NCBI GenBank assembly: GCA_036846225.1
Contig: DAIUCJ010000005.1
Span: 24,745 to 88,744 of the forward strand
Source: Hylemonella sp.
GTDB lineage: Bacteria; Pseudomonadota; Gammaproteobacteria; Burkholderiales; Burkholderiaceae_C
Reading direction: 5' to 3'
DNA length: 64,000 bases
Shown here: piece by piece, positions 1 to 58,347 of the stretch
How the letters are laid out: each line of letters begins with the position of its first letter
How positions within the stretch are numbered: position 1 is the first letter of the stretch
Notes under the pieces: generated by a model
What the model was told of the DNA's origin: nothing
What the model saw: the letters and a program-made list of their open reading frames with translations, nothing else
The model's database searches: none
Made by a program: the position numbers and the translations under genes

Positions 1-909
1 ACCCCGCCGCAGCGCATCGTCCCTTATGTCGAAGACCGTCGCAACATACTCATCGTGCGGCCGCACCACCGCCTGGGCGTGCTGAAGGCCGAGACCCTGA
101 CCACCTTACAGTACGCGCTCAAGCGCGGTATCGAGGCGTTCTATCAGCTCGAAGAGAGCGAGCTCATGGCCGAGCCGCTGCCCACGCGCGACAACCGCCA
201 GTCCATTTTGCTGTTCGAAGCTGCAGAAGGCGGAGCTGGTGTGCTCACGCGGCTGGCCACCGAGCCCGACGCGCTGGCAGCCGTGGCCGCCAAGGCGCTG
301 GAGGTGATGCACTTCAAGGCGCCGCCGGCGGGTCAGGCCTGGCAGCGAGACAGCCTGGTTGAGGAGCTGGACTACAACGGCGAGCCGTACTGCGAGGCTG
401 GCTGCTACCGCTGCCTGCTGTCGTACTACAACCAGCCCGACCACACACTTATTGACCGCAAGGACAAGGCAGCAGGCGGCTTGTTGCTGGATATTCTTTG
501 CCGCTTGACCCAGGCCCGTACCTATCAGGGGACTCAGGGACGAGCTCCGCAAGAGCATGACGCGCAACTGGCCCGCACTGCAGGCAGTACGCTGGAACGA
601 GCCTGGCTCGACCATGTCGCCGAGCATGGCTACCGCAAGCCTGACCGCGGCCAGCACACCATTGCTGGCGCCAATGGTGATTCCGTAGCCTGCGCAGACT
701 TCTTCTACGACGACTTGAACCTGGCCGTCTTCGTCGATGGCCCGAACCACGAGACCGAGGCCCAGCGCGCGCGTGATGCCGCGATCGACCGCAAGCTGGA
801 CGAGCTGGGCTACCTTGTGGTCCGCTTCCCGAAGGAAACCGGGAGCTGGGAAGCCATCTTCAAGAACAACGCCGATCTCTTCGGGCCCGGCAAACCATCC
901 GCACCATGA
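1..909 (+). CDS. drmB: DUF1998 (MrfA-type Zn-binding) domain protein, DrmB-like, 3' fragment, with a C-terminal DUF559/Vsr-like PD-(D/E)xK endonuclease domain
   Basis: The frame is open from base 1 (TPPQRIVPYVEDRRNILIV...), so the 5' end lies outside the window. The Cys cluster CEAGCYRCLLSYYNQPDH (about 391-444) matches the DUF1998 signature. The tail (about 586-909), ADFFYDD..LAVFVDGPNHE..RD..IDRKL..LGYLVVRF, fits the DUF559/Vsr endonuclease pattern. The stop overlaps the next start (ATGA at 906-909). Confidence 0.6.
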   Translation, partial: TPPQRIVPYVEDRRNILIVRPHHRLGVLKAETLTTLQYALKRGIEAFYQLEESELMAEPLPTRDNRQSILLFEAAEGGAGVLTRLATEPDALAAVAAKALEVMHFKAPPAGQAWQRDSLVEELDYNGEPYCEAGCYRCLLSYYNQPDHTLIDRKDKAAGGLLLDILCRLTQARTYQGTQGRAPQEHDAQLARTAGSTLERAWLDHVAEHGYRKPDRGQHTIAGANGDSVACADFFYDDLNLAVFVDGPNHETEAQRARDAAIDRKLDELGYLVVRFPKETGSWEAIFKNNADLFGPGKPSAP

Positions 910-3773
910 ACGCACCTTTGCTCGAGTTCCTCCCCGGAAGCCTTGTTTCGGCCCGCGGGCGTGAATGGATCGTCCTGCCCGAGTCCGACCAGCAGACTTT
1001 GCGCCTGCGCCCCCTTGGGGGTGGCGAGCGCGACGAAACGCTTGTCTACCTGCCGCTCGAGCGCCAGCCCGTTCAACCTGCGACTTTCCCCTGGCCAACC
1101 ATCGACCAAGCGCGCAACCACTCGGCCAGCCAGATGCTGCTCGATGCCTTGCAGCTCAAGCTGCGCAGCGGCGCGGGGCCATTTCGCAGCTTCGGCAACA
1201 TCGCCGTGGAGCCCCGCGCCTACCAGCTCGTGCCGCTGCTGATGGCCCTGAAGCTCCCAACGGTGCGCCTGCTGATTGCCGACGACGTGGGCATCGGCAA
1301 GACCATCGAAGGCGCCCTGATTGCGCGCGAGCTGCTCGACCGTGGTGAAATTCAGCGTTTTACCGTGCTGTGCCCGCCGCACCTGTGCGAGCAGTGGCAG
1401 CATGAGCTGGCCAGCCGCTTCCATATCCCGGCGGTCGTCGTCCGCTCCAACACCGCCGACCGGCTCGAGCGCGAGCTTCCGCCCGGGGCCTCGCTGTTTG
1501 ACGCCCATCCCTTCACCGTGGTGAGCCTGGACTACATCAAGTCCGAGCGCCGCCGCGAGGCCTTCCAGCGCTTCTGCCCGGAGTTCGTCATCGTCGATGA
1601 GGCGCACACCTGCACCCAGGCCGGTCAAGGCCGGCAGCAGCGCTACCAACTGCTCAAAGGCCTGGCCGCCCAGCCAGACCGGCATCTGGTGCTGCTGACC
1701 GCCACCCCGCATAGCGGCGATGAGGAGGCCTTTTTCAACCTGCTTGGCCTGCTGCGGTCTGAATTCACCCAACTCAAAGATCTGCCACCGGGCCAGCGCA
1801 GTGAGCTGCGCGAGGCCTTGTCGCGCCACTTCGTGCAGCGCCGCCGCCCCGACATTGCCGAATGGCAGGACACCTCGATGTTCCCGGAACGCAAGTCGGC
1901 GGAAATCACCTACCGGCTGACCGGCGCCTGGGGGCAGCTGTTCAACAACGTGCTGGCCTATGCCCGCGAGCTGGTGGAGCGCTCCGAGGGCCAAGGCCTG
2001 CGCGAACAGCGCATGAACTGGTGGGCGGCCCTTGCGCTGCTGCGCTGCATCTCGTCGTCCCCGGCGGCCGCCGTCAACGCCCTGCGCACCCGCCTGCTCG
2101 GCGTTCATGGCCAGGCCCAGGCAGCCGATACCGTATCGCTCGAAGAATTCGAAGCCCAGGCCGCCGACCGGGTGCTGGACGGCACCGAAGACGCCCTGTC
2201 CACCGACGACATGGAACCCGGCGCCCAAACCGAAGACAGCCTGCGTCTGCAAGAGCTGATGGCCAGCGCCCAAGCCCTGGCCGGCCAGCAGAACGACCCC
2301 AAGCTTGCCAGGCTGCAGGAGCATCTGGCCGTCCTGCTCAAGGACGGATTCCAGCCGGTCGTGTTCTGCCGCTACATCGCCACCGCACACTATCTGGCGG
2401 CCGCGCTGCAAGAGACCTTCAAGTCGGCAACGGTCAAGGCCGTGACCGGCGAGCTCACTCCCGACGAGCGCGAAGCCGCCGTTGAATCGTTGGGCGAGAG
2501 CGACACACGCATCCTGGTTGCCACCGACTGCCTGTCTGAAGGCATCAACCTGCAGAGCCTGTTTACGGCGGTGGTCCACTACGACCTGAGCTGGAACCCC
2601 ACCCGCCATGAGCAAAGGGAAGGGCGGGTGGATCGCTTCGGCCAGAAAGCCCGCGAGGTCCGCAGCACCATGCTCTACGGCGAGGACAATCCCGTGGACG
2701 GCGCCGTTCTGCAGGTCATCCTGCGCAAGGCCGAGAGCATCCGCAAGGAGCTGGGCGTGCTCGTGCCCATGCCCGACGACGAGGGCAAGCTCACCCAGGC
2801 CCTGATGAACGCGGTGCTGCTGCGCAAGGGAGCGCCGCTCAATGCGCAGTCGCAGCTCGACCTGTTCGGCGAGCCGGCCAAGGCCATAGACCTGGCCTGG
2901 CAAAGCGCGAAAGAGAAGGCCAAGCAGAACCGCAGCATCTTTGCTCAGCGCCGCTTGAAGCCCGAAGACGTGCTGCCCGAGTGGCGCAAGACGGCCGCCG
3001 TCCTGGGCGGTGAAGCCGACGTGGAGCGCTTCGTCCGCCGCGCAGCCGCCCAACTTGGCGCGCCGCTGCAAGCGGTGAATTCGGGGGCAGGGCAGCACTT
3101 CAAGCTGTTGACCGAGCACCTGCCTGCTGCGGTCCGGGAACGCCTCGCCGTCGAAGGCATTTCCGGCACGCTGCGCATCGACTTCCACCAGCCTGCCGCG
3201 CAGGGCGCCACCTTCATCCACCGCACGCACCCGCTGGTGGCTGTGCTGGCCGACACCTTGCTGGAGCAGGCGCTAGATGCCACAGTGGCCAGCGACGACG
3301 CAGCCGCCGTGGCCCGCGCCGGTGCCGCCTTCGTCGGCGCCGTCAGCCTCAAGACCACGGTGCTGCTGCTGCGCATACGCCATCAGCTCACGGTAACCCA
3401 CGGCAAGTCCACCCGCCTGCTGATGTGCGAAGAGGCGGTGGCCGTGGCTGCCGCAGGCTCTGACGCCTTTGCCGAACTCACTCCTGAGCGGACTCGCCAG
3501 CTGCTCGGCGCCGAGGCTACCCGCAACATGCCCGCCCCGCTGCGCGACCGCCAGCTCCAGGCCGCGCTCGATGCCCTGCCCGGCTGGCAGCCCCAGCTCG
3601 AAGCCATCGCCAAAGCCCGCGCCCAAGCCTTGCTGGCCGACCACCGCCGCGTGCGCGAAGCAGCCGAGGGCCGCGGCAGCTACCAGGTAACCGCCAGCCT
3701 GCCGGTGGACGTGATGGGTCTGTATGTGCTGCTGCCCGACACGGGCGCTGCCAACAACGCCGTGGGAGCCTGA
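906..3773 (+). CDS. drmD: SNF2-family (SF2) helicase, DrmD-like
   Basis: 955-aa ORF with SNF2 motifs: DDVGIGKT (I), VIVDEAHTC (II), LLLTATPHSG (III), VATDCLSEGINLQ (V) and HEQREGRVDRFGQ (VI). It sits between a DUF1998 gene and a large adenine methyltransferase. Confidence 0.75.
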   Translation: MNAPLLEFLPGSLVSARGREWIVLPESDQQTLRLRPLGGGERDETLVYLPLERQPVQPATFPWPTIDQARNHSASQMLLDALQLKLRSGAGPFRSFGNIAVEPRAYQLVPLLMALKLPTVRLLIADDVGIGKTIEGALIARELLDRGEIQRFTVLCPPHLCEQWQHELASRFHIPAVVVRSNTADRLERELPPGASLFDAHPFTVVSLDYIKSERRREAFQRFCPEFVIVDEAHTCTQAGQGRQQRYQLLKGLAAQPDRHLVLLTATPHSGDEEAFFNLLGLLRSEFTQLKDLPPGQRSELREALSRHFVQRRRPDIAEWQDTSMFPERKSAEITYRLTGAWGQLFNNVLAYARELVERSEGQGLREQRMNWWAALALLRCISSSPAAAVNALRTRLLGVHGQAQAADTVSLEEFEAQAADRVLDGTEDALSTDDMEPGAQTEDSLRLQELMASAQALAGQQNDPKLARLQEHLAVLLKDGFQPVVFCRYIATAHYLAAALQETFKSATVKAVTGELTPDEREAAVESLGESDTRILVATDCLSEGINLQSLFTAVVHYDLSWNPTRHEQREGRVDRFGQKAREVRSTMLYGEDNPVDGAVLQVILRKAESIRKELGVLVPMPDDEGKLTQALMNAVLLRKGAPLNAQSQLDLFGEPAKAIDLAWQSAKEKAKQNRSIFAQRRLKPEDVLPEWRKTAAVLGGEADVERFVRRAAAQLGAPLQAVNSGAGQHFKLLTEHLPAAVRERLAVEGISGTLRIDFHQPAAQGATFIHRTHPLVAVLADTLLEQALDATVASDDAAAVARAGAAFVGAVSLKTTVLLLRIRHQLTVTHGKSTRLLMCEEAVAVAAAGSDAFAELTPERTRQLLGAEATRNMPAPLRDRQLQAALDALPGWQPQLEAIAKARAQALLADHRRVREAAEGRGSYQVTASLPVDVMGLYVLLPDTGAANNAVGA

Positions 3774-3777
3774 CGCC

Positions 3778-6700
3778 ATGGCCAAACGACTCACCCACCA
3801 GCTGGCCTACCGCGCCATCGCAATCGTTGGCGGGCTCATCCCCGCTGAAGAGCTCACCCGCCTGACCCTGCTGGCCGACCCCAAAGCCACCGAGCAGACC
3901 GAAAGCCACTACGGCATCCCCAAAGGCCTGAAGCTGCGCGACGAAATCGCCCGCGACTTCAAGATTGCCCTCAACCTCTGGCAAGACTTCCAGGCCCTGC
4001 GCCAGCGGCGGGACGTATCCGCCCACGAAGTCACCGTGCGCGAGTGGCTGCTGCCGCTGCTGCGCGACGTGCTGCACTTTCACGACGCTGCCCGCTGCCC
4101 CGCCATCGAGAAAGCGGGCCACCAGTACGCCGTGGGCCATGCCGGCAACGGTGGCCGCGTGCCGCTGGTGTTCGCGGGCTTTGACGAACCGCTGGACGCC
4201 GCCGCCGAGCGCTTTGGCGAGACCAACCCCGACACCGGTCGCACCCGCCGCCGCAGCCCCTTCATGCTGGCGCAGGAGGCGCTCAACGCCAGCGACGCAT
4301 CGCTCTGGGCCATCGTGAGCAACGGCTTGCAGCTTCGCATCCTGCGCGACAACCCGAGCCTCACGCGCCCCGCCTACATCGAGGTGGACCTGGAAGCGCT
4401 CTTCAACGAAGAGCTGCTGGCCGACTTCAGCGCCTTCTGGCTGCTGGCCCACGCCAGCCGCTTTGGCGCAGCCGATTCGCCGCCCAGCGACTGCCCCTGG
4501 GAGCGCTGGCGCTCGGCTGGCCAGCAGGCCGGCATCGCGGTGCGAGGGCAACTGCGCTACCAGGTGGCCGAGGCGCTGCGGGCGCTGGGCACCGGCTTCC
4601 TCAGCAACCCCGCCAATGGCGCCCTTCGCGCCGCTTTGCAAGATCCGGCCAGCGGCTACGACCGGCAGGCCTTCTTCGAAGAGCTGCTACGGCTGGTGTA
4701 CCGCCTCATCTTCCTGGCCACTGTGGAAGACCGCCGTGACCGCGGCACGGGCGAGCGCCTGGTCTTCACGCCGGACGCCGCCGACGATGCCAAGGCCCGG
4801 TATCTCGCCGGCTACTCCATGACCTGGCTGCGCGAGCGGGCCGTGCGCCGCAGCCAGCACGACCGCCATGCCGACCTCTGGCAGGCGCTCGTCATCACCT
4901 TCGGCGCCCTGGCCCGCGGCGAGCCCGCATTGGGCCTGCCGGCGCTCGGCGGCCTGTTCGACGCCGACCAGTGCCCGCGCCTGGACGCCGCACACATCGA
5001 AAACCGCCACCTGCTGGCAGCCGTGTTCCAGCTCGGCTGGTTCCGCGCTGAAGGGGGGCTCTCGCGCGTGAACTACCGCGACATGGGCCCCGAAGAGCTG
5101 GGCAGCGTCTATGAAAGCCTGCTGGAGCTCGTGCCCGACCTGCAGGGCCTTGCCTCGCCCGTCACGGCGCGCTTGGCGTTTGTCGGCGACGAACAGACCG
5201 AAGCCAGCACCAAGGGCAACACGCGCAAGCTCACCGGCAGCTACTACACCCCGGACAGCCTGGTGCAGGAGCTCATCAAGAGCGCGCTGGAGCCCGTCAT
5301 CGCACAGACGGTCAAGGCAAATCCAGAACGTCCCGTCGAGGCGCTGCTGTCGCTCACCATCTGCGACCCCGCCTGCGGCAGCGGCCACTTCCTGCTGGCT
5401 GCCGCGCGCCGCCTGGCCGACGAGGTGGCGCTGCACCGCGCCGCTGCCGAGCGCGAGGGTGGCGCCCCCACGCCCGCCGACTACCGCCACGCCCTGCGCG
5501 ACGTGGCCAGCCGCTGCATCTACGGGGTGGACAAAAACCCCATGGCCATCCAGCTCGCCAAGACCGCGCTGTGGCTGGAGGCCTACTCGCCTGACCGGCC
5601 GCTCTCTTTCCTCGACCACCACCTGCGCGTGGGCGATGCGCTGCTGGGCGTGCTCGACCCCAAGGTGCTTGCGCACGGCATCCCGGATGAGGCCTACACC
5701 GCCCTCTCGGGCGACGACAAGGCCGTGGCCAGCGCGCTGAAAAGGCAGAACAAGGCCGACCTCGCGAGCTGGCGTCAGATGGCCGGTGGCGACCTGCTCA
5801 CCCAGGCGGGCCTGGCCGCGCAGGCGGTCAGCGTGGAGCAGCTCGCCGACGACACCCCCGAGCACCTGGCCGCCAAGCGCCGGGCCTGGGCGCAGGCCGA
5901 GGCCGAGACGCGGCGCAGCACTTTCGCCCGCCTGGCCGACCTGTACGTGGCCGCCTTCCTCGCGCCCAAGGCAGGCGGCACGCAGGACACCGTGCCGCTG
6001 TCGGGCTACCTGTGGCGCGTGCTCAGCGGCCAGGCGCCGAAGGCTGCCGTGGAAGACACCGCCCAGGCCCTGTGCCGCCAGCACAGCGTCTTCCACTGGT
6101 GGCTGGCCTTCCCGCAGGTGGCCGCGCGCGGTGGCTTCGACGTGATGCTCGGCAACCCGCCGTGGGAGCGCATCAAACTGCAGGAGGAAGAGTTCTTCGC
6201 CACCCGCAGCCCGCTGGTGGCCCAGGCCCGCAACAAAGCCGAGCGCGCCCAGCGCATCCAGTGGCTGCGCGAAGGGGTGCTGCTGCACCGCGTCAACCCC
6301 GATCTTGAGCGCGCTGAAGGGCTTACACCGCCCAACCGGGCTGAGATGGCGCTGTACGCCAGCTTCATTGCCGCGCGACGAGGGGCGGAGGCCGCCAGTC
6401 TGTATGCCCACGACGGTCGGCGCTACCCGCTCACCGGCGTGGGCGACGTCAACACCTACGCCCTCTTTGCCGAGACCTTCCTGCAAGCCACCGCCCCCAC
6501 CGGGCGCGCGGGCTTCATCGTGCCCACCGGCATCGCCACCGACGACTCCACCAAAGCCTACTTCGGCCACATCGCCAGCAGCGCCCGGCTGGTGAGTCTC
6601 TTCGACTTCGAGAACAGCGAGGCGGTCTTCCCTGCCGTCCACCGCAGCTACAAGTTCTCGCTGCTCACGCTCGGCGCCGCGCCGCAGGCCGAGTTTGTGT

Positions 6701-8277: not shown

Positions 8278-9137
8278 CCGCTTCGGTCGCTGATGACGCC
8301 ACCAAGGTGAAGTTGGGCACGACTGGTGCGCCGCCAACCTATCTGAGCCATCTGAAGCCAGTCGATGAACTGTCGCTCGCCACCGGCGAGAGGTGCCAGG
8401 TCTGGGAGCTTGCAGTACCTAAGGACGATGCTTGCCTCAGCGAATGGGCCTGCAGGTTCCGGCAGTGTTACTGCCCGGATAGTCAGCTCGACCTACTTCG
8501 CGAAGGCACCGGAAAGACCCGAGCAGAGTACCTGCTTGAGCTCGTGTTTCCGGACCAAAGCAAAGCACCCGGGCCCGGGGTTCGCTCGGGCGACTTTGCA
8601 GAGCTGCTGATAGCTGACTTCGTCGAGTTTCTGCTCGGCTACTGGGTGCCCCGCGGGAAGTACGCGGAAAAGGGAAGCCGCAACGAGTCCGTCAAGGGGG
8701 TCGATATCGTCGGCTTTAAGTGTCCGAACGCCGAGCAACCGAACCCGAGCGATGAGCTGCTGACCTTCGAAGTGAAGGCACAGCTGCGGGGAGGCAAATA
8801 CGACGAGCGTCTCCAAGTAGCGGTCGATGACTCCGCAAAGGACTACCTGCGTGCTGGGGAGACGCTCGCTGCGATGAAGCGCAGGCTTCTGAACATGGGG
8901 GACAGCAGTGCCGCAAAGGTCGTGCAGCGCTTTCAGAATGCAGCCGACCGGCCGTACCTCCTCCTATCCGGCGCTGCAGCCGTCCTGTCGGACGACGCGT
9001 TCGATGCGGCGGGGCTTTCCAAGACTTCTACCGCGAAGCACAACAATGCGCGGGGCTTGCGACTCGTGGTTGTCAAGGGGGAGGGTCTGATGGACCTTGC
9101 CCACGCGCTTTATCAGAGAGCTGCCGATGAGGCCTGA
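8274..9137 (+). CDS. hamA: HamA-like (DUF1837-type) putative PD-(D/E)xK effector of a Hachiman-like system
   Basis: 287-aa ORF with a nuclease-like D..ExK pattern (KGVDIVGF ... LLTFEVKAQL). It sits immediately upstream of, and overlaps, a ~1045-aa DExH helicase, which is the Hachiman/AbpAB architecture. The start overlaps the methylase stop (ATGA at 8274-8277). GC is visibly lower than in its neighbours. Confidence 0.55.
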   Translation: MTASVADDATKVKLGTTGAPPTYLSHLKPVDELSLATGERCQVWELAVPKDDACLSEWACRFRQCYCPDSQLDLLREGTGKTRAEYLLELVFPDQSKAPGPGVRSGDFAELLIADFVEFLLGYWVPRGKYAEKGSRNESVKGVDIVGFKCPNAEQPNPSDELLTFEVKAQLRGGKYDERLQVAVDDSAKDYLRAGETLAAMKRRLLNMGDSSAAKVVQRFQNAADRPYLLLSGAAAVLSDDAFDAAGLSKTSTAKHNNARGLRLVVVKGEGLMDLAHALYQRAADEA

Positions 9138-12100
9138 AGCGAACAGTCGGCGCTACCTAGGCATCACGCGCTCGAAGGGCAAGATGTACGAACTGGGGCT
9201 ACCTGAGGAGTCCCACATCGCCGTCCCCCAGGATGTTGAGCCCGAGGCGCTGTTCCCCTTGTCCATCGGCACGTTGATGGATGCCGCCGTCGGCTTGAAC
9301 GATGCCGCGGAGGACCCACCGGGCATCTCAGACGAACTGCGCGCGGAGCTGGGGTTTGCAGCCAGCTTCTTCGACGCCTACTTGGGGTCGCGCTTCAATG
9401 ACGGCGTTTCGCACGAAGTCAGTCTGTTCGCATCTGCGAGCTACTTCCTCGGCCAACGGCCAGGGAGCAGCTTGGTTCTCGCTCGGCGCCTCACTCTGGA
9501 AGGTTTGAACACCATCGAGCAGGCCGTTATCTGGGCCCTTCGTTCTGAGTGGCATAAGACGCCGGACCTGTCAGCTCATCCGAGTGGAAGCTTGGTTCCA
9601 GGGCTAGTTCAGGAGCTCAAAGCACACTTCGTGGACGGGGCCAGCACCGACGCCGTCATGGCACGGCTATCCCAGCTGCGCACCTGGGCCTACGCAAACG
9701 GAACCGCCAGAGAAGTGGTTCTGGCAGAGGTTACGGCGGCGGTGGTGAAGATGCGGTTGGCCAGCTCGTCATGGAAGTTGCTCCCTGCCTTCAGCGGGTT
9801 GACAAGCGACGCCTGGGCTAACGCCATCCGCCGGCCCGGGTTTCCGAAGGAGCTTTGGCCGTCACAACGGCTCCTCGGTAAGGCGGGCATCTTCGCTGGC
9901 CGCTCGGGCGTCGTGCAGATGCCGACCAGCGCAGGCAAGACGCGCTCGGTGGAAGTCATCCTTCGAAGCGCCTTCCTCGCGGACCGGACTAGGGTCGCGG
10001 TCCTTGTAGCGCCGTTCCGGGCCTTGTGCCATGAGATTGCGACTTCATTCCGTCAGTCCTTCCGGAACGAGGACGTCAGGGTCAACGAGCTATCGGACGC
10101 CCTACAACTCGACTTCACCGACCAGCTTGCCGAACTGTTCGGCGCTGCGCCACCGAGCACACGCTATCTTCTCGTGTTGACGCCGGAGAAGCTGCTTTAC
10201 GTTCTGCGGCAAGCGCCCGAGTTTGCCACGCATCTAGGTCTTGTGGTCTACGACGAGGGTCACCAGTTCGACTCGGGCAAGCGTGGCATCACGTATGAGC
10301 TGCTGCTGGCGGAAATCAAGAGCCAAGTTGCCGCCACCGTACAGACGGTTCTCATCTCGGCTGTCATCAAGAACGCGACGGCTGTCGGCTCATGGCTCAT
10401 TGGCGCAGACCCGAACGTTGTCGATGGAACGGGGCTTCTGTCGACAGCACGTTCGGTTGCCTTTGCCACCTGGAGCGAGGCTCTGGGCCAACTTTGGTTC
10501 TTCGAGTCAGGCGACTATCAGAAGCGAGACTACTTCGTCCCTCGCAGCATTGAAGCTCAAGCCCTTGAGCTCCGCGGCAAAGAGTCCAAACCTCGTGCCT
10601 TCCCCGAACGAGGGGAAGGTGCCTGGAAAGATGTGTCTCTTTACCTTGGTATCCGTTTGGCTCCCAACGGCGCTGTCGCCATCTTCTGCGGACGGAAGGA
10701 CACCGCATCTGGCCTTGCGGCGCGCGCTGTCGACGTGTACGCGCGAGGGTTCTCTCTGACGCCGCCATCCCAAGCCTCGAATCCGGATGAGGTACAGCGG
10801 CTCGTTCACTTGGCTTCCCAGCACTTCGGAGCCGATTCGGTGCTGGCTAAGGCTGCCGCACTGGGCGTGTTTGTCCACCACGGGACGACGCCGCAGGGGA
10901 TACGTCTTTCGATCGAGCATGCGATGCAGCAGGAGCTCATCAAGCTCGTTATCTGCACATCAACCCTAGCTCAAGGCGTCAACCTGCCGATTCGCTACTT
11001 GGTGGTGTCTGGAGTGAACCAAGGCGCCGACCGAATCAAGACGCGTGACTTCCAAAACCTCATCGGCAGAGCGGGGCGCGCAGGCATGCACACGGAGGGT
11101 CTAGTCATTTTCGCGGACCCCCGAGTCATGGACAAGAGACGGCAGGAGCGATGGCGACTTGATGCTGCCATTGAACTGCTGACGCCGGAGAAGGCCGAGG
11201 ACACATCCAGTTCGCTCTTGATGCTCGTATCCCCGCTCCGCACTGCTGATGAGCGAGGGGAGCTGCCGGTCGCCCAGGCCGTTGTGACGCTGGCCTACTT
11301 CCTGCGGGGCGACGCGCTGCGTGAGTGGGCGAAGGGTGTCCTGCAGGCGACCCCGATGCCAGGGGAGAGTGAACGGACGCTGGTGCGCCAGATTTCCAAG
11401 CGGCAGGCCTTACTGGTCGCGCTGGAGAGCTATCTGATGGCAAATCGTGGCACCGATACCTCAGACGAGTTTCTGACGAGAGCACGGAGCCTCGCGGAGT
11501 CCACGCTCGCCTTCGCTTTGGCCAATGAGGCACAGAAGCAGGATTTGCTTCAGCTTTTCGAACTGACCGCGAGGCATGTTGAAGCGATAGCCCCCGCTCA
11601 ATCGCAACAGGCGAAGTTTTCAAAGACGTTGCTAGGGGCAGTGGATGCAGCCGCTGTTGAGCAATGGGTGCTGCAAAACGAGGTAACAGTTGCTGGACTT
11701 ACTGAACCTCGTGATTGGCTCGTCGCCCTTTGGCCGCTGCTGGTTGCCGTTGCCGACAGCAAGCTTTTGCCGGCTATGGAGCCAGACGGTCTCGCTCTCG
11801 AGCTCGCCAAGCGCTGGATGGACGGGGCGACCTACGGTGAACTCATCGCATATGTGAGTGCCAGTGGCGGCACTAAGGCCAAGGGCGAGGATGGCAGACA
11901 GCGCCTCTCAGATGCAGACGTGTTGGGATTCCTGGAGGGCGACCTGGGATTTGACTGCCCATTGGTCATCTCGGCCGTCGGTGAGTTCGTGGCGGAGCTC
12001 CCCACGGTCGACGGTGCGTGCCGTGACAGGTTGAACGCTTTCCAGAAGTGCCTCAAGTACGGTCTACCCGATGCGCTGAGCATCTCAATCTACGAGGTCG

Positions 12101-12264
12101 GTTTCGCCGACCGCTGCATCGCGCAAGAGCTGACTGCTGAGCTGCGGGCGGCAGGCTATGAAGGGGCCCACGTCGACGGGGCCTTGGCAAATCACCGAGA
12201 CGTCTTCGTCGCCGTCTTGACCCGATATCCAAGCTACTTCGAAACAGTCCTAGACGGGCTCTGA
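9127..12264 (+). CDS. hamB: HamB-like DExH-box (Ski2-like SF2) helicase
   Basis: Motifs VVQMPTSAGKT (I), LVVYDEGHQF (II, DEGH), LISAV (III), ICTSTLAQGVNLP (V) and LIGRAGRAGM (VI). ATG at 9127 overlaps the hamA stop by 11 nt; an alternative TTG lies at 9097. Confidence 0.6.
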   Translation: MRPEANSRRYLGITRSKGKMYELGLPEESHIAVPQDVEPEALFPLSIGTLMDAAVGLNDAAEDPPGISDELRAELGFAASFFDAYLGSRFNDGVSHEVSLFASASYFLGQRPGSSLVLARRLTLEGLNTIEQAVIWALRSEWHKTPDLSAHPSGSLVPGLVQELKAHFVDGASTDAVMARLSQLRTWAYANGTAREVVLAEVTAAVVKMRLASSSWKLLPAFSGLTSDAWANAIRRPGFPKELWPSQRLLGKAGIFAGRSGVVQMPTSAGKTRSVEVILRSAFLADRTRVAVLVAPFRALCHEIATSFRQSFRNEDVRVNELSDALQLDFTDQLAELFGAAPPSTRYLLVLTPEKLLYVLRQAPEFATHLGLVVYDEGHQFDSGKRGITYELLLAEIKSQVAATVQTVLISAVIKNATAVGSWLIGADPNVVDGTGLLSTARSVAFATWSEALGQLWFFESGDYQKRDYFVPRSIEAQALELRGKESKPRAFPERGEGAWKDVSLYLGIRLAPNGAVAIFCGRKDTASGLAARAVDVYARGFSLTPPSQASNPDEVQRLVHLASQHFGADSVLAKAAALGVFVHHGTTPQGIRLSIEHAMQQELIKLVICTSTLAQGVNLPIRYLVVSGVNQGADRIKTRDFQNLIGRAGRAGMHTEGLVIFADPRVMDKRRQERWRLDAAIELLTPEKAEDTSSSLLMLVSPLRTADERGELPVAQAVVTLAYFLRGDALREWAKGVLQATPMPGESERTLVRQISKRQALLVALESYLMANRGTDTSDEFLTRARSLAESTLAFALANEAQKQDLLQLFELTARHVEAIAPAQSQQAKFSKTLLGAVDAAAVEQWVLQNEVTVAGLTEPRDWLVALWPLLVAVADSKLLPAMEPDGLALELAKRWMDGATYGELIAYVSASGGTKAKGEDGRQRLSDADVLGFLEGDLGFDCPLVISAVGEFVAELPTVDGACRDRLNAFQKCLKYGLPDALSISIYEVGFADRCIAQELTAELRAAGYEGAHVDGALANHRDVFVAVLTRYPSYFETVLDGL

Positions 12265-12284
12265 CAAGTACACGGTTGATTGAT

Positions 12285-14045
12285 ATGAGCGAAACCCTTT
12301 TCAAAGAAGTCCGCTACACCCTGGGCGGACTCATCAACGGCATCAGCATGGGCCAGATTGGCCTGCCCGACATTCAGCGCCCCTTCGTATGGAGCAACGC
12401 CAAGGTCCGCGACCTGTTCGACTCGATGTACCGCGGCTACCCGGTGGGCTTCTTCCTGTTCTGGGAGACCGGGGCCGACGGCGTGGAGACCAAGGTCATC
12501 GGCGATACCAACAAGCAGAAAACGCCTTCTTTGCTCATCGTTGATGGGCAGCAGCGGCTGACCTCGCTCTACGCGGTCATCCGGCGCGAGGCCGTGCTGC
12601 GCGAGAACTTCGAGCGGGAGCGCATCCGCATCGCGTTCCGGCCACAGAACGGTACCTTCGCGGTACCCGATGCCACGACCGAGCGCGACCCGGAGTACAT
12701 CCTCGACATTTCCGAGGTCTTCAATCGCCCCACGCACAAGACGATTGCCGAGTACCTGAAGCGGCTGTCTTCGGCGAGGGAAGTGTCGGATGCGGAAGAA
12801 GAGAAGGTTGCCGAGGCCATCGGCCGCCTGGCAGGGCTGACGAACTTCCCCTTCATCGCGCTGGAGCTGTCGCAGCAGTGCACCGAGGAGCAGGTGGCCG
12901 ACGTCTTCGTGCGCATCAACAGCGAAGGCAAGAAACTCAACCAGTCGGACTTCATCCTGACCCTCATGTCGGTGTTCTGGGACGAGGGCCGCACCGAGCT
13001 GGAGGCCTTCTGCCGCGCTGCCCGGCAGCCCGGGCCCGCGGGGCAGGCCAGCCCGTTCAACGCCATCTTCCAGCCCGACCCGGACCACCTGCTGCGTGTC
13101 GACGTCGGCGTCGCTTTCCGCCGCGCGCGGCTGGAGCACGTGTACTCGCTGCTGCGAGGCAAGGATCTTTCCACCAGCGAGTCCAGCCCCGAGAAGCGGG
13201 CCAGCCAGTTCGGCAAGCTGCGCGATGCCCAGTCACGGGTGCTCAATCTGACGTACTGGGCTGACTTCCTGAACGTGGTGCGCGCCGCGGGCTACCGCAG
13301 CGCCAAGCACATCAGTTCGGTCAACGCGCTGGTCTTCGCCTACCAGCTGTACCTGCTGGGGCGCACCGAGTACGGCGTGGAGGGTTTCAAGCTCAAGAAC
13401 GCCATCGCGCGCTGGCTGTTCATGTCGTTGCTGACGGGGCGCTACACCACTTCGCCGGAATCACGGATGGAGCAGGACCTCGCCGAGCTGCGGGACATGA
13501 CCTCGGCCGAGCAGTTCCTGGCGCGGTTGGCGACGGTGGAGTCGGCCACGCTGACGGACGACTACTGGACCAAAACCTTGCCGCTGGAGCTGGCCACGTC
13601 CGCAGGACGCAGCCCAGCGCTGTTCGGCTTCTATGCGGCGCAGACGCTGCTGGATGCCCGCGCGCTGTTCTCGTCCATGAAGGTGGTGGACCTGCTGGAC
13701 CCGCCGGCCCAGGGGCAGAAGAAGCCGCTCGAGCGGCATCACCTGTTCCCGCGGCAGTACCTGAAGGGCAAGGGCGTGGAGAGCGTCCGGGATATCAACC
13801 AGATTGCCAACTACGCGCTGGTCGAGTGGGACGACAACATCGCCATTTCGGACGCTGCGCCCAGCCAGTATTGGCCCAAGTACGCGGAGCGCTTCGACCC
13901 CGAGACCTTGGCGGCCATGATGCGCTGGCACGCCTTGCCGCAGGACTGGTGGACGCTGAGCTACGAGGACTTTCTGGTGGCGCGGCGGCCGCTGATTGCC
14001 GATGTGATTCGCCAGGGCTATGTGAAGCTATCCGGAGGTGGGTGA
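12285..14045 (+). CDS. DUF262/DUF1524 protein, GmrSD/BrxU-like type IV (modification-dependent) restriction enzyme family
   Basis: The N-terminus has DUF262 signatures DIQRPFVW and IVDGQQRLTSLY. The C-terminus has a His-Me/DUF1524-like block ERHHLFPRQYL ... NQIANYALVEWDDNIAISD. ATG at 12285 (TTG alternative at 12276) lies about 20 nt after the hamB stop. Confidence 0.75.
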   Translation: MSETLFKEVRYTLGGLINGISMGQIGLPDIQRPFVWSNAKVRDLFDSMYRGYPVGFFLFWETGADGVETKVIGDTNKQKTPSLLIVDGQQRLTSLYAVIRREAVLRENFERERIRIAFRPQNGTFAVPDATTERDPEYILDISEVFNRPTHKTIAEYLKRLSSAREVSDAEEEKVAEAIGRLAGLTNFPFIALELSQQCTEEQVADVFVRINSEGKKLNQSDFILTLMSVFWDEGRTELEAFCRAARQPGPAGQASPFNAIFQPDPDHLLRVDVGVAFRRARLEHVYSLLRGKDLSTSESSPEKRASQFGKLRDAQSRVLNLTYWADFLNVVRAAGYRSAKHISSVNALVFAYQLYLLGRTEYGVEGFKLKNAIARWLFMSLLTGRYTTSPESRMEQDLAELRDMTSAEQFLARLATVESATLTDDYWTKTLPLELATSAGRSPALFGFYAAQTLLDARALFSSMKVVDLLDPPAQGQKKPLERHHLFPRQYLKGKGVESVRDINQIANYALVEWDDNIAISDAAPSQYWPKYAERFDPETLAAMMRWHALPQDWWTLSYEDFLVARRPLIADVIRQGYVKLSGGG

Positions 14046-14761
14046 TGACCCCGCTGGACCGCTTGCGCTTGGAGAAGGCCGCCGCCGACTGCGGCTTCGA
14101 GATGACGGCGGTCCCGCACCCCGACGGGCTGGAGCTTCGTTCTGCACGGTTCCCGGAGACGGTGCTGGTGCGTGTGGCGGGGGAGAAGAGCTTTGAGGTC
14201 AGCGCTTCGGACCCGGTCATCCTGAACCAGTCGGCTGGCAGCGGCCCCTTGAAAGTTGAGGGGTACGGCGAGCTCTACGCCTTGCTGCGCAAGACGGCGG
14301 CCCATGCCCGTACCAAGCCCAACCGGGTGGCGGACGAGTTCAAGAAGAAGACGGCGGCGATGCCAAAGACGACCGAGGCCGAGCGGCTGGTCGTCCAGCG
14401 GGTAGGGCAAGGGCTGTTCCGCGCTGCGCTGTTGGACTACTGGCAGGGGAAGTGCTGCGTCACCGGTCTGGACGTGCCGGAGCTGCTGCGAGCCTCGCAC
14501 ATCCGTCCCTGGGCCCAGTGCGAGACCGACGAGCAGCGGCTGGACGTGTTCAACGGACTGCTTCTGGCGCCGCACCTGGACGCGCTGTTCGACGCCGGGT
14601 TAATGACTATCGATGCCGCGGGAGTGGTGCAGCTGTCGGCCAAGCTGACCGCCGAGCGGCGCACTGCACTCGGTCTCCACGGCGAACTCAAAGTCGCCGC
14701 CTTGCGCGCCGAGCACCACGCCTACCTCGACTTCCACCGGCTGAACGTCTGGGACGGCTGA
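14045..14761 (+). CDS. HNH endonuclease (HNH_2 type) with a ~120-aa uncharacterised N-terminal domain
   Basis: The C-terminal half, QRVGQGLFRAALLDYWQGKCCVTG..LLRASHIRPW....NGLLLAPHLDALFDAGLMTID, matches the HNH_2 pattern. The start ATG overlaps the stop of the DUF262 gene (TGATG at 14043-14047). The longer ORF-track start at 13826 lies inside the upstream gene. Confidence 0.75.
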   Translation: MTPLDRLRLEKAAADCGFEMTAVPHPDGLELRSARFPETVLVRVAGEKSFEVSASDPVILNQSAGSGPLKVEGYGELYALLRKTAAHARTKPNRVADEFKKKTAAMPKTTEAERLVVQRVGQGLFRAALLDYWQGKCCVTGLDVPELLRASHIRPWAQCETDEQRLDVFNGLLLAPHLDALFDAGLMTIDAAGVVQLSAKLTAERRTALGLHGELKVAALRAEHHAYLDFHRLNVWDG

Positions 14762-14791
14762 GGACGCTGCAAGGCGCCAGTCTGATGGGGT

Positions 14792-14820
14792 TTGACAGCC
14801 AGCCAGATAATATGCATACT
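14792..14820 (+). promoter_or_regulatory. Candidate sigma70-type promoter (TTGACA-N17-CATACT) in the AT-rich island/core junction
   Basis: TTGACA at 14792-14797, a 17-nt spacer, then CATACT at 14815-14820. This is the only AT-rich stretch in the area (gataatatgcatacttattaaat), upstream of the monooxygenase gene. The -10 match is weak. Confidence 0.25.
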
Positions 14821-14883
14821 TATTAAATGCGAAGGGCCTCGCCGGCACACCGCACACCACCCACATCAGAGCAGGAGCAAGCC

Positions 14884-53567: not shown

Positions 53568-53652
53568 GCCGTCGTGGTGGAATTGGTAGACACGCTATCT
53601 TGAGGGGGTAGTGGCGCAAGCTGTGCGAGTTCGAGTCTCGCCGACGGCACCA
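53568..53652 (+). tRNA. tRNA-Leu (anticodon GAG), with long variable arm and encoded CCA
   Basis: GCCGTCGTGGTGGAATTGGTAGACACGCTATCTTGAGGGGGTAGTGGCGCAAGCTGTGCGAGTTCGAGTCTCGCCGACGGCACCA. The acceptor stem GCCGTCG/CGACGGC pairs, the anticodon stem CTATC/GGTAG flanks the loop TTGAGGG, and a T-arm GAGTTCGAGTCTC is present. Confidence 0.9.
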
Positions 53653-53707
53653 GACAACTGACCGCCCGGGTATGGCCCGGGTGGCCCAACGGCGATCAGC
53701 AATCAAG

Positions 53708-54067
53708 ATGAGCCTCGATCAGTACCTGCCCGTTCTCCTCTTCATCTTGGTCGGCATCGCCGTCGGAATACTCCCCCAGGTGATTGGCTACGTTCTCGGT
53801 CCCAATCGCCCCGATCCCGCGAAAAACTCCCCCTACGAGTGTGGCTTCGAAGCCTTCGAAGACGCGCGCATGAAGTTCGATGTGCGCTACTACCTCGTGG
53901 CCATCCTGTTCATCCTGTTCGATCTAGAAATCGCCTTTCTGTTTCCCTGGGCCGTAGCGCTCAAGGAAGTCGGTGCGGTGGGCTTCTGGGCAGCCATGGT
54001 GTTCATCGCCATCCTGGTCGTGGGTTTCATCTACGAGTGGAAAAAGGGCGCGCTGGACTGGGAATGA
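53708..54067 (+). CDS. nuoA: NADH-quinone oxidoreductase subunit A
   Basis: [43 protein letters not shown]. Confidence 0.93.
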
Positions 54068-54119
54068 GCGCCTGCGCTGCGGGCTTGAGCGGTGAGGACG
54101 GATTGCGAGGACGACAGCC

Positions 54120-54599
54120 ATGATCGAAGGCGTATTCAAGGAAGGCTTCATCACCACCAGCTACGACACCGTCGTCAACTGGGCCAAGACCGGTTCGCTG
54201 TGGCCGATGACGTTCGGACTGGCCTGCTGCGCGGTGGAAATGATGCATGCCGCCACCGCCCGCTACGACCTGGCGCGGTTCGGGGCTGAGGTGTTTCGCG
54301 CCAGTCCGCGCCAGTCCGACCTGATGATCGTGGCTGGCACGCTGTGCAACAAGATGGCCCCGGCGCTGCGCAAGGTCTATGACCAGATGAGCGAGCCGCG
54401 TTACGTGATTTCCATGGGCTCGTGCGCCAACGGCGGCGGCTACTACCACTACAGCTACTCCGTCGTGCGCGGCTGCGACCGCATCGTGCCGGTCGATGTG
54501 TACGTGCCGGGCTGCCCGCCCACGGCCGAGGCGCTGATCTACGGGATCATCCAGCTGCAGCAGAAGATCCGGCGCACCCAGACCATCGCCCGCGTCTGA
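54120..54599 (+). CDS. nuoB: NADH-quinone oxidoreductase subunit B
   Basis: [27 protein letters not shown] and VPGCPP (N2 cluster ligands). Confidence 0.95.
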
Positions 54600-54611
54600 A
54601 GGATACCTCCG

Positions 54612-55220: not shown

Positions 55221-55234
55221 GGCAGGTTTGCAAC

Positions 55235-58325: not shown

Positions 58326-58347
58326 GCCCCTATCCCGAGTACACGAC

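What the first reader, a model, noticed from the sequence alone, without database searches (positions are those of the whole stretch)
1..14761. Seven defence genes packed as one same-strand array with four overlapping start/stop junctions
All seven ORFs from base 1 to 14761 are on the + strand, with almost no intergenic DNA. The junctions are ATGA at 906-909 and at 8274-8277, an 11-nt overlap at 9127-9137, TGATG at 14043-14047, a 4-nt gap at 3774-3777, and about 20 nt at 12265-12284. By motif they fall into at least three different defence families: DISARM-like, Hachiman-like and type IV restriction. Such systems are usually separate transcription units. Here the Hachiman-like hamA start sits inside the stop codon of the DISARM-like methylase, so the systems may be co-translated and co-regulated. 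Some genes now assigned to different systems might in fact work together as a composite system.
Basis: partly seen in the sequence, partly recalled or inferred. Interest (0 to 1): 0.7.

Follow-up and report, generated by a model that had tools for sequence, protein, structure and literature searches.

The report
Defence genes nested inside ARMADA operon
Bases 1-14761 encode one DISARM-related anti-phage operon (ARMADA type I) that carries two self-sufficient defence modules, Hachiman and a GmrSD/BrxU-like enzyme, nested between its methylase gene and its last gene; this kind of nesting is already published, so it is not a new hybrid system.

Summary

The interpretation needs changing in three ways.
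1. The "DISARM-like" genes match ARMADA type I (Bell et al. 2025): a YprA/DruE-like helicase with DUF1998 and a C-terminal Vsr/DUF559 nuclease (cut by the window start), then an SNF2 helicase, then a PglX/Eco57I-like methylase.
2. The last gene (HNH_2, 14045-14761) goes with ARMADA, not with GmrSD. Among 80 related loci it lies downstream of the methylase in 55 of the 62 that can be assessed. The distance ranges from about 11 nt to 9 kb. Its identity tracks the helicase's (Spearman 0.94).
3. The methylase-to-HNH gap is a cargo bay. In other genomes it holds GmrSD, DRT1, Mokosh, HEC-01, HEC-03, HEC-07, PDC-S39, Dsr1 or dGTPase, or it is empty. Hachiman fills it in only a few loci. HamAB relatives also occur away from ARMADA, and hamAB has a foreign codon composition.

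This is "defence-system embedding" as described by Payne et al. 2024. Co-transcription is likely but inferred. Obligate joint function is not supported. The conserved HNH "bookend" is not mentioned in the ARMADA preprint's text or held supplements, nor in the main text of Payne 2024.

The parts
1..909 (+). 3' end (last 302 codons) of the ARMADA type I YprA/DruE-like helicase-nuclease gene. The full gene encodes 1784 aa and starts upstream of the window.
   Evidence: Frame 1 is open from base 1. Pfam MZB/DUF1998 6e-10 and DUF559 (Vsr-like) 7e-5. The full gene on the identical contig L001 584-5938 has DEAD + Helicase_C + MZB + DUF559. The best PADLOC hits are DruE at 8e-92, against DrmA at 3e-13.
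906..3773 (+). SNF2-family helicase (ArmA/BrxHII/DrmD-like), 955 aa. Its start overlaps the helicase stop (ATGA).
   Evidence: Pfam SNF2-rel_dom and Helicase_C. PADLOC DrmD 5e-90 and BrxHII 1e-57; a PADLOC 'DpdE' sub-model scores 7e-215. NCBIfam DISARM_DrmD scores 347 bits, below its 610-bit cut-off. It is conserved next to the helicase in 78 of 80 loci.
3778..8277 (+). N6-adenine DNA methyltransferase (ArmB/PglX/DrmMI-like, Eco57I family), 1499 aa. This is the short variant, which lacks the roughly 160-aa C-terminal extension and the following 'C2' ATPase-like gene seen in many relatives.
   Evidence: Pfam Eco57I 9e-18, N6_Mtase and MmeI_Mtase. PADLOC DrmMI 9e-70. There are 7732 homologues with E<=1e-20 among the 8000 candidates scored; the named ones in the top 120 are mostly Burkholderiales.
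8274..9137 (+). hamA (Hachiman type I nuclease subunit, DUF1837), 287 aa. Embedded cargo.
   Evidence: PADLOC HamA1 2e-100. Pfam HamA scores only 2e-3. GC3 is 0.72, against 0.84-0.89 for the neighbouring genes. Relatives are found both inside ARMADA slots and free-standing.
9127..12264 (+). hamB (Hachiman Ski2-like helicase), 1045 aa. Embedded cargo. It overlaps hamA by 11 nt.
   Evidence: PADLOC HamB1 E=0, 1227 bits, full length. PDB 8vx9_B HamB 8e-45. GC3 is 0.71.
12285..14045 (+). GmrSD/BrxU-like type IV restriction enzyme (DUF262 N-terminal domain plus a C-terminal HNH-like motif), 586 aa. Embedded cargo, and the commonest occupant of this slot.
   Evidence: Pfam GmrSD_N 1e-32. PADLOC HEC-05 2e-38. 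BrxU 7p9k matches the N-terminal part only. The motifs RDLFDS, DGQQR and HHLFP..N were read in the translation. It is present in 18 of 55 bracketed loci.
14045..14761 (+). HNH_2 endonuclease, 238 aa. It is the conserved terminal gene ('bookend') of the ARMADA type I operon. Its start overlaps the gmrSD stop (TGATG).
   Evidence: Pfam HNH_2 6e-15. The nuclease domain resembles VcaM4I, 6yex, 4e-20. It lies downstream of the methylase in 55 of 62 assessable loci at a variable distance. Its identity tracks the helicase's, Spearman 0.94, n=50. The genes after it are unrelated between loci.
14762..14826 (.). Right boundary of the array: an AT-rich spacer with a promoter-like site (14792-14820) for the next, unrelated gene (phenol hydroxylase-like flavoprotein, 14827-16809).
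   Evidence: Promoter scan TTGACA-17-CATACT. Pfam FAD_binding_3 and Phe_hydrox_dim.

Best explanation
Window 1-14761 is the distal three-quarters of one long operon. The host system is an ARMADA type I (DISARM-related) defence system.

Gene order of the host system:
- A small RHH regulator-like gene and the 5' part of the helicase gene lie just upstream of the window.
- Then come the YprA/DruE-like helicase with DUF1998 and a C-terminal Vsr-type nuclease, an SNF2 helicase, a PglX/Eco57I-like N6-adenine methylase and, as the last gene, an HNH_2 endonuclease.

The stretch between the methylase gene and the HNH gene is a hypervariable cargo bay. In this genome it holds two autonomous modules. One is a type I Hachiman pair (hamA, hamB), acquired relatively recently to judge by its codon composition. 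The other is a GmrSD/BrxU-like type IV restriction enzyme, a long-term and frequent resident of the bay.

Likely mechanism (inferred):
- All genes are transcribed from the promoter upstream of the helicase and are translationally coupled at the overlaps. Cargo expression would then be tied to the host system.
- The terminal HNH gene is made only if transcription reads through the cargo. This would select for co-oriented, terminator-free, tightly joined cargo.

Functionally the three modules would give layered but separable protection:
- ARMADA acts directly and non-abortively in the tested type II systems. Whether its methylase marks self DNA and the system restricts unmodified DNA is only a hypothesis in the literature.
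- GmrSD would attack hypermodified DNA, if it behaves like characterised GmrSD enzymes.
- Hachiman degrades DNA when genome integrity is lost.

Shown: the domain identities, the gene order, the junctions, the variability of the bay, the independent occurrence of the modules, and the co-inheritance of HNH with ARMADA. Inferred: the single transcript, the coupling, the division of labour, and any synergy.
For: Identity of the host system:
- Helicase with DEAD + Helicase_C + MZB/DUF1998 + DUF559. It is closest to DruE, not DrmA.
- An SNF2 helicase with DrmD/BrxHII similarity and an Eco57I/PglX-like methylase follow in the order YprA, SNF2, methylase. This is the order and domain set given for ARMADA type I by Bell et al..

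HNH as a core gene:
- Found in 55 of 80 loci. Only 7 loci with at least 9 kb of downstream sequence lack it.
- It is present down to 34-44% identity in Geobacter, Verrucomicrobia, Acidithiobacillus and Desulforudis.
- It directly abuts the methylase in L008 (19 nt) and L031 (11 nt).
- Identity correlation with the helicase is 0.94, the same as SNF2 against the helicase.
- Downstream genes differ between loci.

Cargo bay:
- Contents include GmrSD, DRT1, Mokosh, PDC-S39, HEC-01, HEC-03, HEC-07, Dsr1, dGTPase, an SF1 helicase-DUF559 protein and Hachiman.
- An identical HNH protein sits behind different cargo in L125 and in L126-128.

Independence of Hachiman:
- HamAB relatives at 54-70% identity have 10-kb flanks without any ARMADA gene (L090, L103, L104, L106, L108, L116, L119, L122). 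L102 has none in 10 kb upstream and lies next to a type I R-M system. L111 lies beside an HmaA-like SNF2 helicase (27% identity to the window SNF2).
- hamAB GC3 is 0.71-0.72, against 0.84-0.89 for the other genes.

Operon structure: no + strand terminator-like site within 909-14761 and no internal promoter-like site.

Published precedent for embedding, co-orientation and stand-alone activity of HEC-05/BrxU.
Against: - No transcript data exist. Promoters inside coding sequence cannot be excluded in a 65-70% G+C genome, where the sigma-70 scan is nearly blind (1 hit found against 1.0 expected).
- The ARMADA assignment rests on domain content, order and PADLOC best hits. It does not rest on a phylogeny with the published reference sequences, and the BrxA-like and Zn-barrel inserts of the helicase were not examined.
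- Bell et al. do not mention an HNH gene in ARMADA type I. 'HNH is a core component' is therefore my inference from synteny and co-variation, and 7 loci lack it.
- The HamAB + GmrSD + HNH order recurs over substantial divergence (HamB down to about 65% identity). This is also what a selected functional combination would look like.
Confidence: 0.78

Rival explanations
1. A true composite system. Hachiman and/or GmrSD have become functionally dependent on, or regulated by, ARMADA proteins. For example, the ARMADA helicase-nuclease could generate the damaged-DNA signal that triggers HamAB, or the HNH protein could serve as an effector for GmrSD. The seven genes would then act as one machine.
For: - The junctions are tight and partly overlapping, including methylase/hamA and gmrSD/hnh.
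- The same order recurs in several assemblies and in both methylase variants: L016, L082-084, L091-093, L097 and L130-131.
- GmrSD lies directly before HNH in most of the loci that have it. GmrSD and HNH identities correlate at 0.89, and HamA and GmrSD at 0.92 with n=8.
- Synergy between co-located ARMADA II and Druantia III has been shown experimentally.
Against: - HNH occurs without GmrSD in more than 30 loci and without Hachiman in more than 50.
- The bay is empty in at least 8 loci.
- The GmrSD here has its own DGQQR NTPase and HHLFP nuclease motifs.
- HEC-05/BrxU, to which this GmrSD is only distantly related, defends alone.
- HamAB relatives occur without ARMADA.
- HamA identity does not track ARMADA SNF2 identity (rho 0.46, not significant, n=10).
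- hamAB has a foreign GC3.
- Correlations among co-inherited neighbours are expected from linkage alone.
Confidence: 0.12
2. An ordinary defence island. Three unrelated systems merely sit side by side, each with its own promoter inside the upstream coding sequence. The HNH gene is a fourth independent type IV-like enzyme rather than part of ARMADA.
For: - HNH_2 nucleases related to VcaM4I and TagI are stand-alone modification-dependent enzymes.
- The ARMADA papers list no HNH gene.
- Internal promoters cannot be excluded.
- Seven loci with enough sequence lack HNH.
Against: - A free-riding neighbour would not stay at the 3' end of the array across phyla while everything between it and the methylase, and everything after it, changes.
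- Nor would it co-vary with the helicase as tightly as the SNF2 gene does (0.94).
- The 238-aa protein has only a roughly 100-aa N-terminal domain with no recognisable modified-base reader fold.
- Gaps of 0-20 nt leave no intergenic space for regulatory regions.
Confidence: 0.1

Closest known systems
ARMADA type I (disARM-related Antiviral Defense Array; Bell et al., bioRxiv 10.1101/2025.09.15.676423)
   Same: The gene order is the same: YprA-like helicase first, then a BrxHII-like SNF2 helicase, then a PglX-like methylase. The YprA protein carries DUF1998 and a C-terminal Vsr-type (DUF559) nuclease and is closest to Druantia DruE. The system is abundant in Pseudomonadota.
   Different: Here, and in 55 related loci, a conserved HNH_2 gene closes the operon after a variable cargo bay. 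In part of the clade a small RHH gene precedes the helicase (16 loci) and a roughly 660-aa P-loop/coiled-coil gene follows a longer methylase. None of these genes is mentioned in the preprint's text or held supplements. Only type II ARMADA has been tested experimentally.
Defence-system embedding (Payne, Hughes, Fineran, Jackson, bioRxiv 10.1101/2024.01.29.577857)
   Same: Known and candidate defence genes are nested between the core genes of a multi-gene, methylase-containing system, in the same orientation. BrxU/GmrSD-like proteins are frequent cargo. The very HEC and PDC families defined in that work (HEC-01, -03, -05, -07, PDC-S37, PDC-S39) fill this slot in related loci.
   Different: That study scored the hosts as Hma, BREX, DISARM or type I R-M; ARMADA had not yet been named. 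Hachiman is not mentioned in its main text. The bracket formed by a conserved terminal HNH gene is not described there.
DISARM class 1 (drmD, drmMI, drmA, drmB, drmC)
   Same: There is an SNF2 helicase similar to DrmD, an N6-adenine methylase similar to DrmMI, and a helicase with a DUF1998 module.
   Different: The helicase and DUF1998 are fused in one DruE-like protein. There is no PLD (DrmC) gene. The nucleases are Vsr-type and HNH instead. The DrmD and DrmA NCBIfam models are not reached (347 against 610 bits; 20 against 950 bits).
BREX with embedded BrxU on plasmid pEFER (Picton et al. 2021, as cited)
   Same: A GmrSD-family type IV enzyme is nested in a methylation-based defence operon. 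That gives complementary cover against unmodified and modified phage DNA.
   Different: The host system is different (ARMADA, not BREX). The GmrSD here is only distantly related to BrxU (N-terminal match only, 1.5e-10). A second cargo, Hachiman, shares the slot.
Hachiman type I (HamA/HamB; structure 8vx9)
   Same: The match to the PADLOC HamB1 profile is full length, and the match to HamA1 covers residues 21-286 (profile positions 5-270 of 271). The helicase core resembles the solved HamB. The gene order is hamA then hamB.
   Different: The pair sits inside another system's operon, with its start in the methylase stop codon. HamA is very divergent from the solved HamA (E=0.03).

Membership tests
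ARMADA type I | YprA-family DExH helicase with an OB-CON-DUF1998 (MZB) module in one polypeptide | tested here: met
   DEAD 1e-26, Helicase_C 7e-10 and MZB 6e-9 in the 1784-aa protein on L001. MZB 6e-10 in the window fragment.
ARMADA type I | C-terminal Vsr-type (PD-(D/E)xK) nuclease domain on the YprA protein | tested here: met
   Pfam DUF559 at 6.7e-5 (23.2 bits, cut-off 20.6) at residues 232-278 of the window fragment. Catalytic residues were not checked.
ARMADA type I | YprA homologue closer to Druantia DruE than to DISARM DrmA | tested here: met
   PADLOC DruE models score 8e-92 to 4e-57, against DrmA at 3e-13. No phylogeny with reference sequences was made.
ARMADA type I | BrxHII-like SNF2 helicase and PglX-like methylase following the YprA gene in that order | tested here: met
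   The order is seen on L001 and in the window. SNF2 hits BrxHII at 1e-57 and DrmD at 5e-90. The methylase hits Eco57I, MmeI_Mtase, DrmMI and, weakly, PglX.
ARMADA type I | BrxA-like helical insert after RecA1 and a Zn-binding beta-barrel in RecA2 of the YprA protein | not tested
   Only faint zinc-ribbon hits at residues 1325-1360. No structure was predicted for the helicase.
ARMADA type I | Anti-phage activity that requires all the core genes | not testable with these tools
   Shown only for type II systems in E. coli.
DISARM class 1 | Separate DrmA (helicase) and DrmB (DUF1998) proteins | tested here: not met
   They form a single fused protein. NCBIfam DISARM DrmA scores 20 bits against a cut-off of 950.
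DISARM class 1 | DrmC, a PLD-family nuclease | tested here: not met
   No PLD domain is found in any of the seven proteins or in the full helicase.
DISARM class 1 | DrmD SNF2 helicase and DrmMI adenine methylase | tested here: inconclusive
   PADLOC DrmD 5e-90 and DrmMI 9e-70. However, NCBIfam DISARM_DrmD scores 347 bits, below its 610-bit cut-off.
Hachiman type I | HamA (DUF1837) immediately followed by the HamB Ski2-like helicase | tested here: met
   PADLOC HamA1 2e-100. HamB1 E=0 over positions 1-1043 of the profile's 1037. PDB HamB 8e-45. The two genes overlap by 11 nt. Pfam HamA scores only 2e-3, below its threshold.
GmrSD / BrxU type IV restriction | N-terminal DUF262 NTPase domain with a DGQQR motif | tested here: met
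   GmrSD_N 1e-32. DGQQR at residues 87-91 and RDLFDS at 42-47 in the translation.
GmrSD / BrxU type IV restriction | C-terminal DUF1524 HNH-type nuclease domain in the same polypeptide | tested here: inconclusive
   There is no Pfam DUF1524 hit, even at E<=1. A matching motif, ERHHLFP...N...N, lies near the C-terminus. The PADLOC HEC-05 model matches in three stretches.
Hma (HmaA helicase, HmaB m5C methylase, HmaC DUF499 ATPase) | A cytosine-5 methylase and a DUF499 ATPase | tested here: not met
   The methylase is of the N6-adenine Eco57I type. There is no ATPase gene in the window. The C2 protein of relatives hits no Hma model.
Embedded defence cargo (Payne et al. 2024) | Genes lying between the core genes of a host system, co-oriented, that also occur outside that host | tested here: met
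   hamAB and gmrSD lie between the methylase and HNH genes. The slot is variable. HamAB relatives occur outside ARMADA.

The most novel reading that the evidence does not exclude
ARMADA type I operons may have a purpose-built internal cargo bay. A conserved terminal HNH effector gene would be kept at the end of the transcript, so that anything inserted between methylase and HNH must be co-oriented and read through. The resident cargo (here Hachiman plus GmrSD) would then cooperate measurably with ARMADA. For example, ARMADA's helicase-nuclease processing of phage DNA could supply the DNA-end signal that fires Hachiman. The HNH protein would be a previously unrecognised fourth essential ARMADA I component.
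Probability: 0.2. Interest if true: 0.65.

Novelty: new member of a known kind. Interest (0 to 1): 0.4.

Why it matters
- **For annotation.** Automated tools will split this array into 'DISARM-like', 'Dpd-like', 'Hachiman' and 'type IV' pieces. A PADLOC DpdE sub-model scores 714 bits on the SNF2 helicase. Recognising one ARMADA type I operon with nested cargo avoids inventing a hybrid system, and it assigns the HNH gene to the right partner.
- **For biology.** The locus family is a compact natural experiment. The same host operon carries at least a dozen different defence cargoes in one slot, sometimes behind an identical HNH gene. That makes it a good place to test three things: whether embedding gives co-regulation or synergy; whether the HNH nuclease is the missing effector of type I ARMADA; and whether unannotated cargo genes are new defence genes.
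- **Limits.** None of this overturns current views. It extends two recent preprints.

Tried and rejected
- **Site-specific cargo exchange.** I looked for a conserved recombination or attachment motif at the two edges of the cargo bay, by aligning about 60 methylase/C2 stops and HNH starts by eye. I found none. The recurrent 'ATGA' at the HNH start simply reflects its conserved N-terminus (MT/MN). Exchange by homologous recombination in the flanking conserved genes is more likely.
- **Hma as the host.** This was prompted by the HEC hits. I rejected it because Hma needs an m5C methylase and a DUF499 ATPase.
- **Dpd as the host.** This was prompted by the 7e-215 DpdE sub-model hit. I rejected it for three reasons. 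The curated NCBIfam DpdE scores only 197 bits against a cut-off of 500. The helicase hits DpdJ weakly. No dpdA-C-like genes are seen.
- **The N-terminal domain of the HNH protein.** The AlphaFold model is confident for residues 1-100. A Foldseek search of the PDB returned only weak whole-chain matches to VcaM4I and TagI and no fold for the N-terminal domain.
- **RNA elements.** An Rfam scan of the window found nothing.
- **tRNA linkage.** The identical contig L001 starts with what looks like a tRNA 3' end and a terminator. However, 15 other loci show no tRNA within the roughly 1.8 kb of upstream sequence available.
- **Promoter and terminator scans.** These are essentially uninformative at this G+C content.
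Full report
**Observation**

The seven + strand reading frames and all six junctions are as described:
- ATGA at 906-909 and at 8274-8277.
- A 4-nt gap at 3774-3777.
- An 11-nt hamA/hamB overlap at 9127-9137.
- A 20-nt gap at 12265-12284.
- TGATG at 14043-14047.

Two qualifications apply. First, the first frame is open from base 1. It is the last 302 codons of a 1784-aa gene, seen whole on a Logan contig (L001) that is identical to the window over 6454 bases. Second, several start codons are choices. Profile and homologue alignments support 3778, 9127, 12285 and 14045. The hamA start at 8274 is probable: it has a GAGGG Shine-Dalgarno sequence upstream and is shared by close relatives. It is not certain, because the HamA profile starts at residue 21 and in-frame GTG 8304 and TTG 8310 exist.

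Overlaps of this kind also occur in ordinary operons of the same window, at 22095, 39872 and 60453. They indicate operon organisation rather than anything unusual. No + strand terminator-like site lies within 909-14761. The only promoter-like site (14792-14820) serves the next gene, a phenol-hydroxylase-like flavoprotein.

**What the genes are**

| Window position | Gene product | Main evidence |
|---|---|---|
| 1-909 | 3' end of a helicase with MZB/DUF1998 and DUF559 | |
| 906-3773 | SNF2 helicase | PADLOC DrmD 5e-90, BrxHII 1e-57; |
| 3778-8277 | Eco57I-type N6-adenine methylase | PADLOC DrmMI 9e-70; |
| 8274-9137 | HamA | PADLOC HamA1 2e-100; |
| 9127-12264 | HamB | PADLOC HamB1 E=0; solved HamB 8vx9_B 8e-45; |
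| 12285-14045 | GmrSD-like protein | GmrSD_N 1e-32; PADLOC HEC-05; DGQQR and HHLFP motifs; |
| 14045-14761 | 238-aa HNH_2 nuclease | C-terminal half resembles VcaM4I, 6yex, 4e-20; |

The full helicase has DEAD, Helicase_C, MZB and DUF559 domains. It is far closer to Druantia DruE (8e-92) than to DISARM DrmA (3e-13).

**Comparative genomics from the methylase side**

A scan of one genome per species returned 80 loci with 10-kb flanks. tblastn with the window proteins gave the following:
- The order helicase, SNF2, methylase is conserved throughout, at 43-93% identity.
- The HNH gene lies downstream of the methylase in 55 loci.
- Only 7 loci with at least 9 kb of downstream sequence lack it. The remaining 18 are truncated.
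- The methylase-to-HNH distance ranges from 11-19 nt (L031, L008) to about 9 kb.
- HNH identity tracks helicase identity with Spearman 0.94 (n=50). This equals the value for SNF2 against helicase.
- The genes after HNH are unrelated between loci.

I therefore assign the HNH gene to the host system, not to GmrSD.

**What fills the gap**

I clustered the ORFs between the methylase and HNH genes and annotated representatives.

| Cargo | Loci (of 55 bracketed) |
|---|---|
| GmrSD | 18 |
| HEC-03 (ABC ATPase plus RNA ligase) | 9 |
| DRT1 | 6 |
| Mokosh type I | 4 |
| PDC-S39 | 4 |
| SF1 helicase-DUF559 protein | 3 |
| Hachiman | 2 (plus the window) |
| HEC-01 | 1 |
| HEC-07 | 1 |
| Dsr1 | 1 |
| dGTPase | 1 |
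| Empty | at least 8 |

- About half of the loci have a longer methylase followed by a roughly 660-aa P-loop/coiled-coil protein ('C2'), ahead of the cargo.
- An identical HNH protein (P0281) sits behind Mokosh + GmrSD in one genome and behind C2 + DRT1 + GmrSD in three others. Cargo has therefore been exchanged recently.
- Other junctions are also used, but less often. Helicase-to-SNF2 carries an insert in 13 of 71 loci (an IrrE-like protein). SNF2-to-methylase carries one in 12 of 78 (AAA_14/DUF4143 and similar ATPases).
- Junctions between the methylase and the first cargo gene are tight or overlapping for other cargoes too, for example HEC-03 in L076-078.

**Comparative genomics from the Hachiman side**

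A metagenome scan with HamA returned 43 loci.
- Relatives at 57-86% identity lie in the ARMADA bay in about 16 loci. They follow either the short methylase or C2, and are often followed by GmrSD and HNH.
- Relatives at 54-70% identity with 10-kb flanks (L090, L103, L104, L106, L108, L116, L119, L122) have no ARMADA gene nearby. L102 has none in its 10 kb upstream.
- Some of the free-standing ones sit next to a type I R-M system (L102), an HmaA-like helicase (L111) or PDC candidates.
- HamA identity does not track the ARMADA SNF2 identity (rho 0.46, not significant).
- hamAB has GC3 of 0.71-0.72, against 0.84-0.89 for all the neighbouring genes.

Hachiman is thus a mobile, self-contained cargo. 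However, the combination HamAB + GmrSD + HNH is recurrent, not unique to one strain.

**Comparison with what is known**
- Bell et al. (bioRxiv 10.1101/2025.09.15.676423) define ARMADA type I as a YprA-like helicase first, then a BrxHII-like helicase, then a PglX-like methylase. The YprA protein carries a C-terminal Vsr-type nuclease and is closest to Druantia. The host system here meets every feature I could test.
- DISARM class 1 is not met. The helicase is a DrmA/B fusion, there is no PLD DrmC gene, and the curated DrmD and DrmA cut-offs are not reached.
- Hma is not met.
- Payne et al. [quoted passage not shown] Embedded genes are co-oriented in 96.7% of cases, BrxU/GmrSD-like proteins are frequent cargo, and the authors suggest possible co-regulation or back-up roles. 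The HEC and PDC families they defined are the ones I find in this bay.
- Neither paper's text mentions Hachiman or an HNH terminal gene in this context.

**Mechanism**

Most likely the array is one transcript starting upstream of the helicase. A 61-aa RHH gene sits 18 nt before the helicase gene and is conserved in 16 loci. Translation would be coupled at the overlaps.

The three modules would give layered protection:
- ARMADA acts directly and non-abortively in the type II systems tested. The mBio authors hypothesise that it recognises unmodified phage DNA.
- GmrSD would act against hypermodified DNA, if it behaves like characterised GmrSD enzymes.
- Hachiman acts as a genome-integrity sensor. 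This rests on my own knowledge of Tuck et al. 2024, which appears in the reference list seen.

Keeping HNH at the 3' end would select for co-oriented, terminator-free cargo. That point is my inference. Obligate cooperation is not supported, and synergy remains possible.

**Verdict**

The array is a new instance of two recently described things: ARMADA type I and defence-system embedding. One possibly unreported detail is the conserved HNH bookend and the cargo bay it delimits.

Noticed in passing
L001 1-583 (identical contig, immediately upstream of the window): The contig begins with what looks like the 3' end of a tRNA gene (read by eye; not confirmed with ARAGORN), followed by a strong terminator (43-63). 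A 61-aa ribbon-helix-helix-like ORF (380-565) ends 18 nt before the helicase start. tblastn finds this small ORF directly upstream of the helicase in 16 other loci, so it is a likely regulator of the operon.
   Followed up: partly
L010 14989-16977 and 28 other loci (C2 cluster); absent from the window: A roughly 660-aa protein with a Walker A motif and long coiled coils follows the methylase whenever the methylase is the long (about 1650-aa) variant. Its only hit is a weak PADLOC match to LmuB (6e-8), and it has no Pfam family. It may be an optional fifth ARMADA type I component. The window has the short methylase and no C2.
   Followed up: partly
L003 21054-21191, L030 21081-21425, L087 14032-14187, L095 13990-14145: N-terminal remnants of the GmrSD gene (residues 1-52 or 1-115) lie just upstream of HNH in loci whose bay now holds DRT1 or Hachiman. 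This suggests decay of a formerly resident GmrSD.
   Followed up: no
L125 vs L126-L128 (10001-10780 and upstream): The same HNH protein sequence (P0281), preceded in each case by a 587-aa GmrSD gene, follows Mokosh in one genome and C2 + DRT1 in three others. Integrase, AlpA, HipA and Fic genes lie downstream, so the arrays sit on integrative elements and cargo was swapped recently.
   Followed up: partly
L016 6280-7143; L014 8545-9996; L022 8446-9969; L057 7233-9930: Other ARMADA junctions also carry inserts. An IrrE/M78-peptidase-like gene lies between the helicase and SNF2 genes. AAA_14/DUF4143 or ATPase_2/DUF234 ATPases, or a PDDEXK_4 nuclease, lie between the SNF2 and methylase genes.
   Followed up: partly
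window 906-3773: The PADLOC sub-model PDLC02853, labelled DpdE, matches this SNF2 helicase over its full length (714 bits). The curated NCBIfam DpdE model gives only 197 bits (cut-off 500). Automated calls of 'Dpd' on ARMADA loci are a likely artefact.
   Followed up: partly
window 8274-12264: hamA and hamB have GC3 of 0.71-0.72, against 0.84-0.89 for every other gene from 906 to 16809. The overall G+C dips to 0.60-0.63 here.
   Followed up: yes
window 14762-16809: An AT-rich 65-nt spacer with a near-consensus promoter (TTGACA-17-CATACT) precedes a 660-aa FAD-dependent phenol-hydroxylase-like gene. This marks the return to housekeeping or catabolic genes.
   Followed up: partly
window 53568-63021: tRNA-Leu(GAG) lies at 53568-53652. 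It is followed by the start of a nuo (NADH dehydrogenase I) operon, with subunits A, B, C, D, F, G, H and K recognised. The lower G+C here (0.62-0.65) belongs to core genes, not to an island.
   Followed up: partly
window 14045-14344 (HNH residues 1-100): The N-terminal domain of the HNH protein is predicted with high confidence (pLDDT about 90; a helix, a small beta-sheet, then helices). It matches no solved structure or Pfam family, so its role is unknown. It could bind DNA or dock onto ARMADA proteins.
   Followed up: partly
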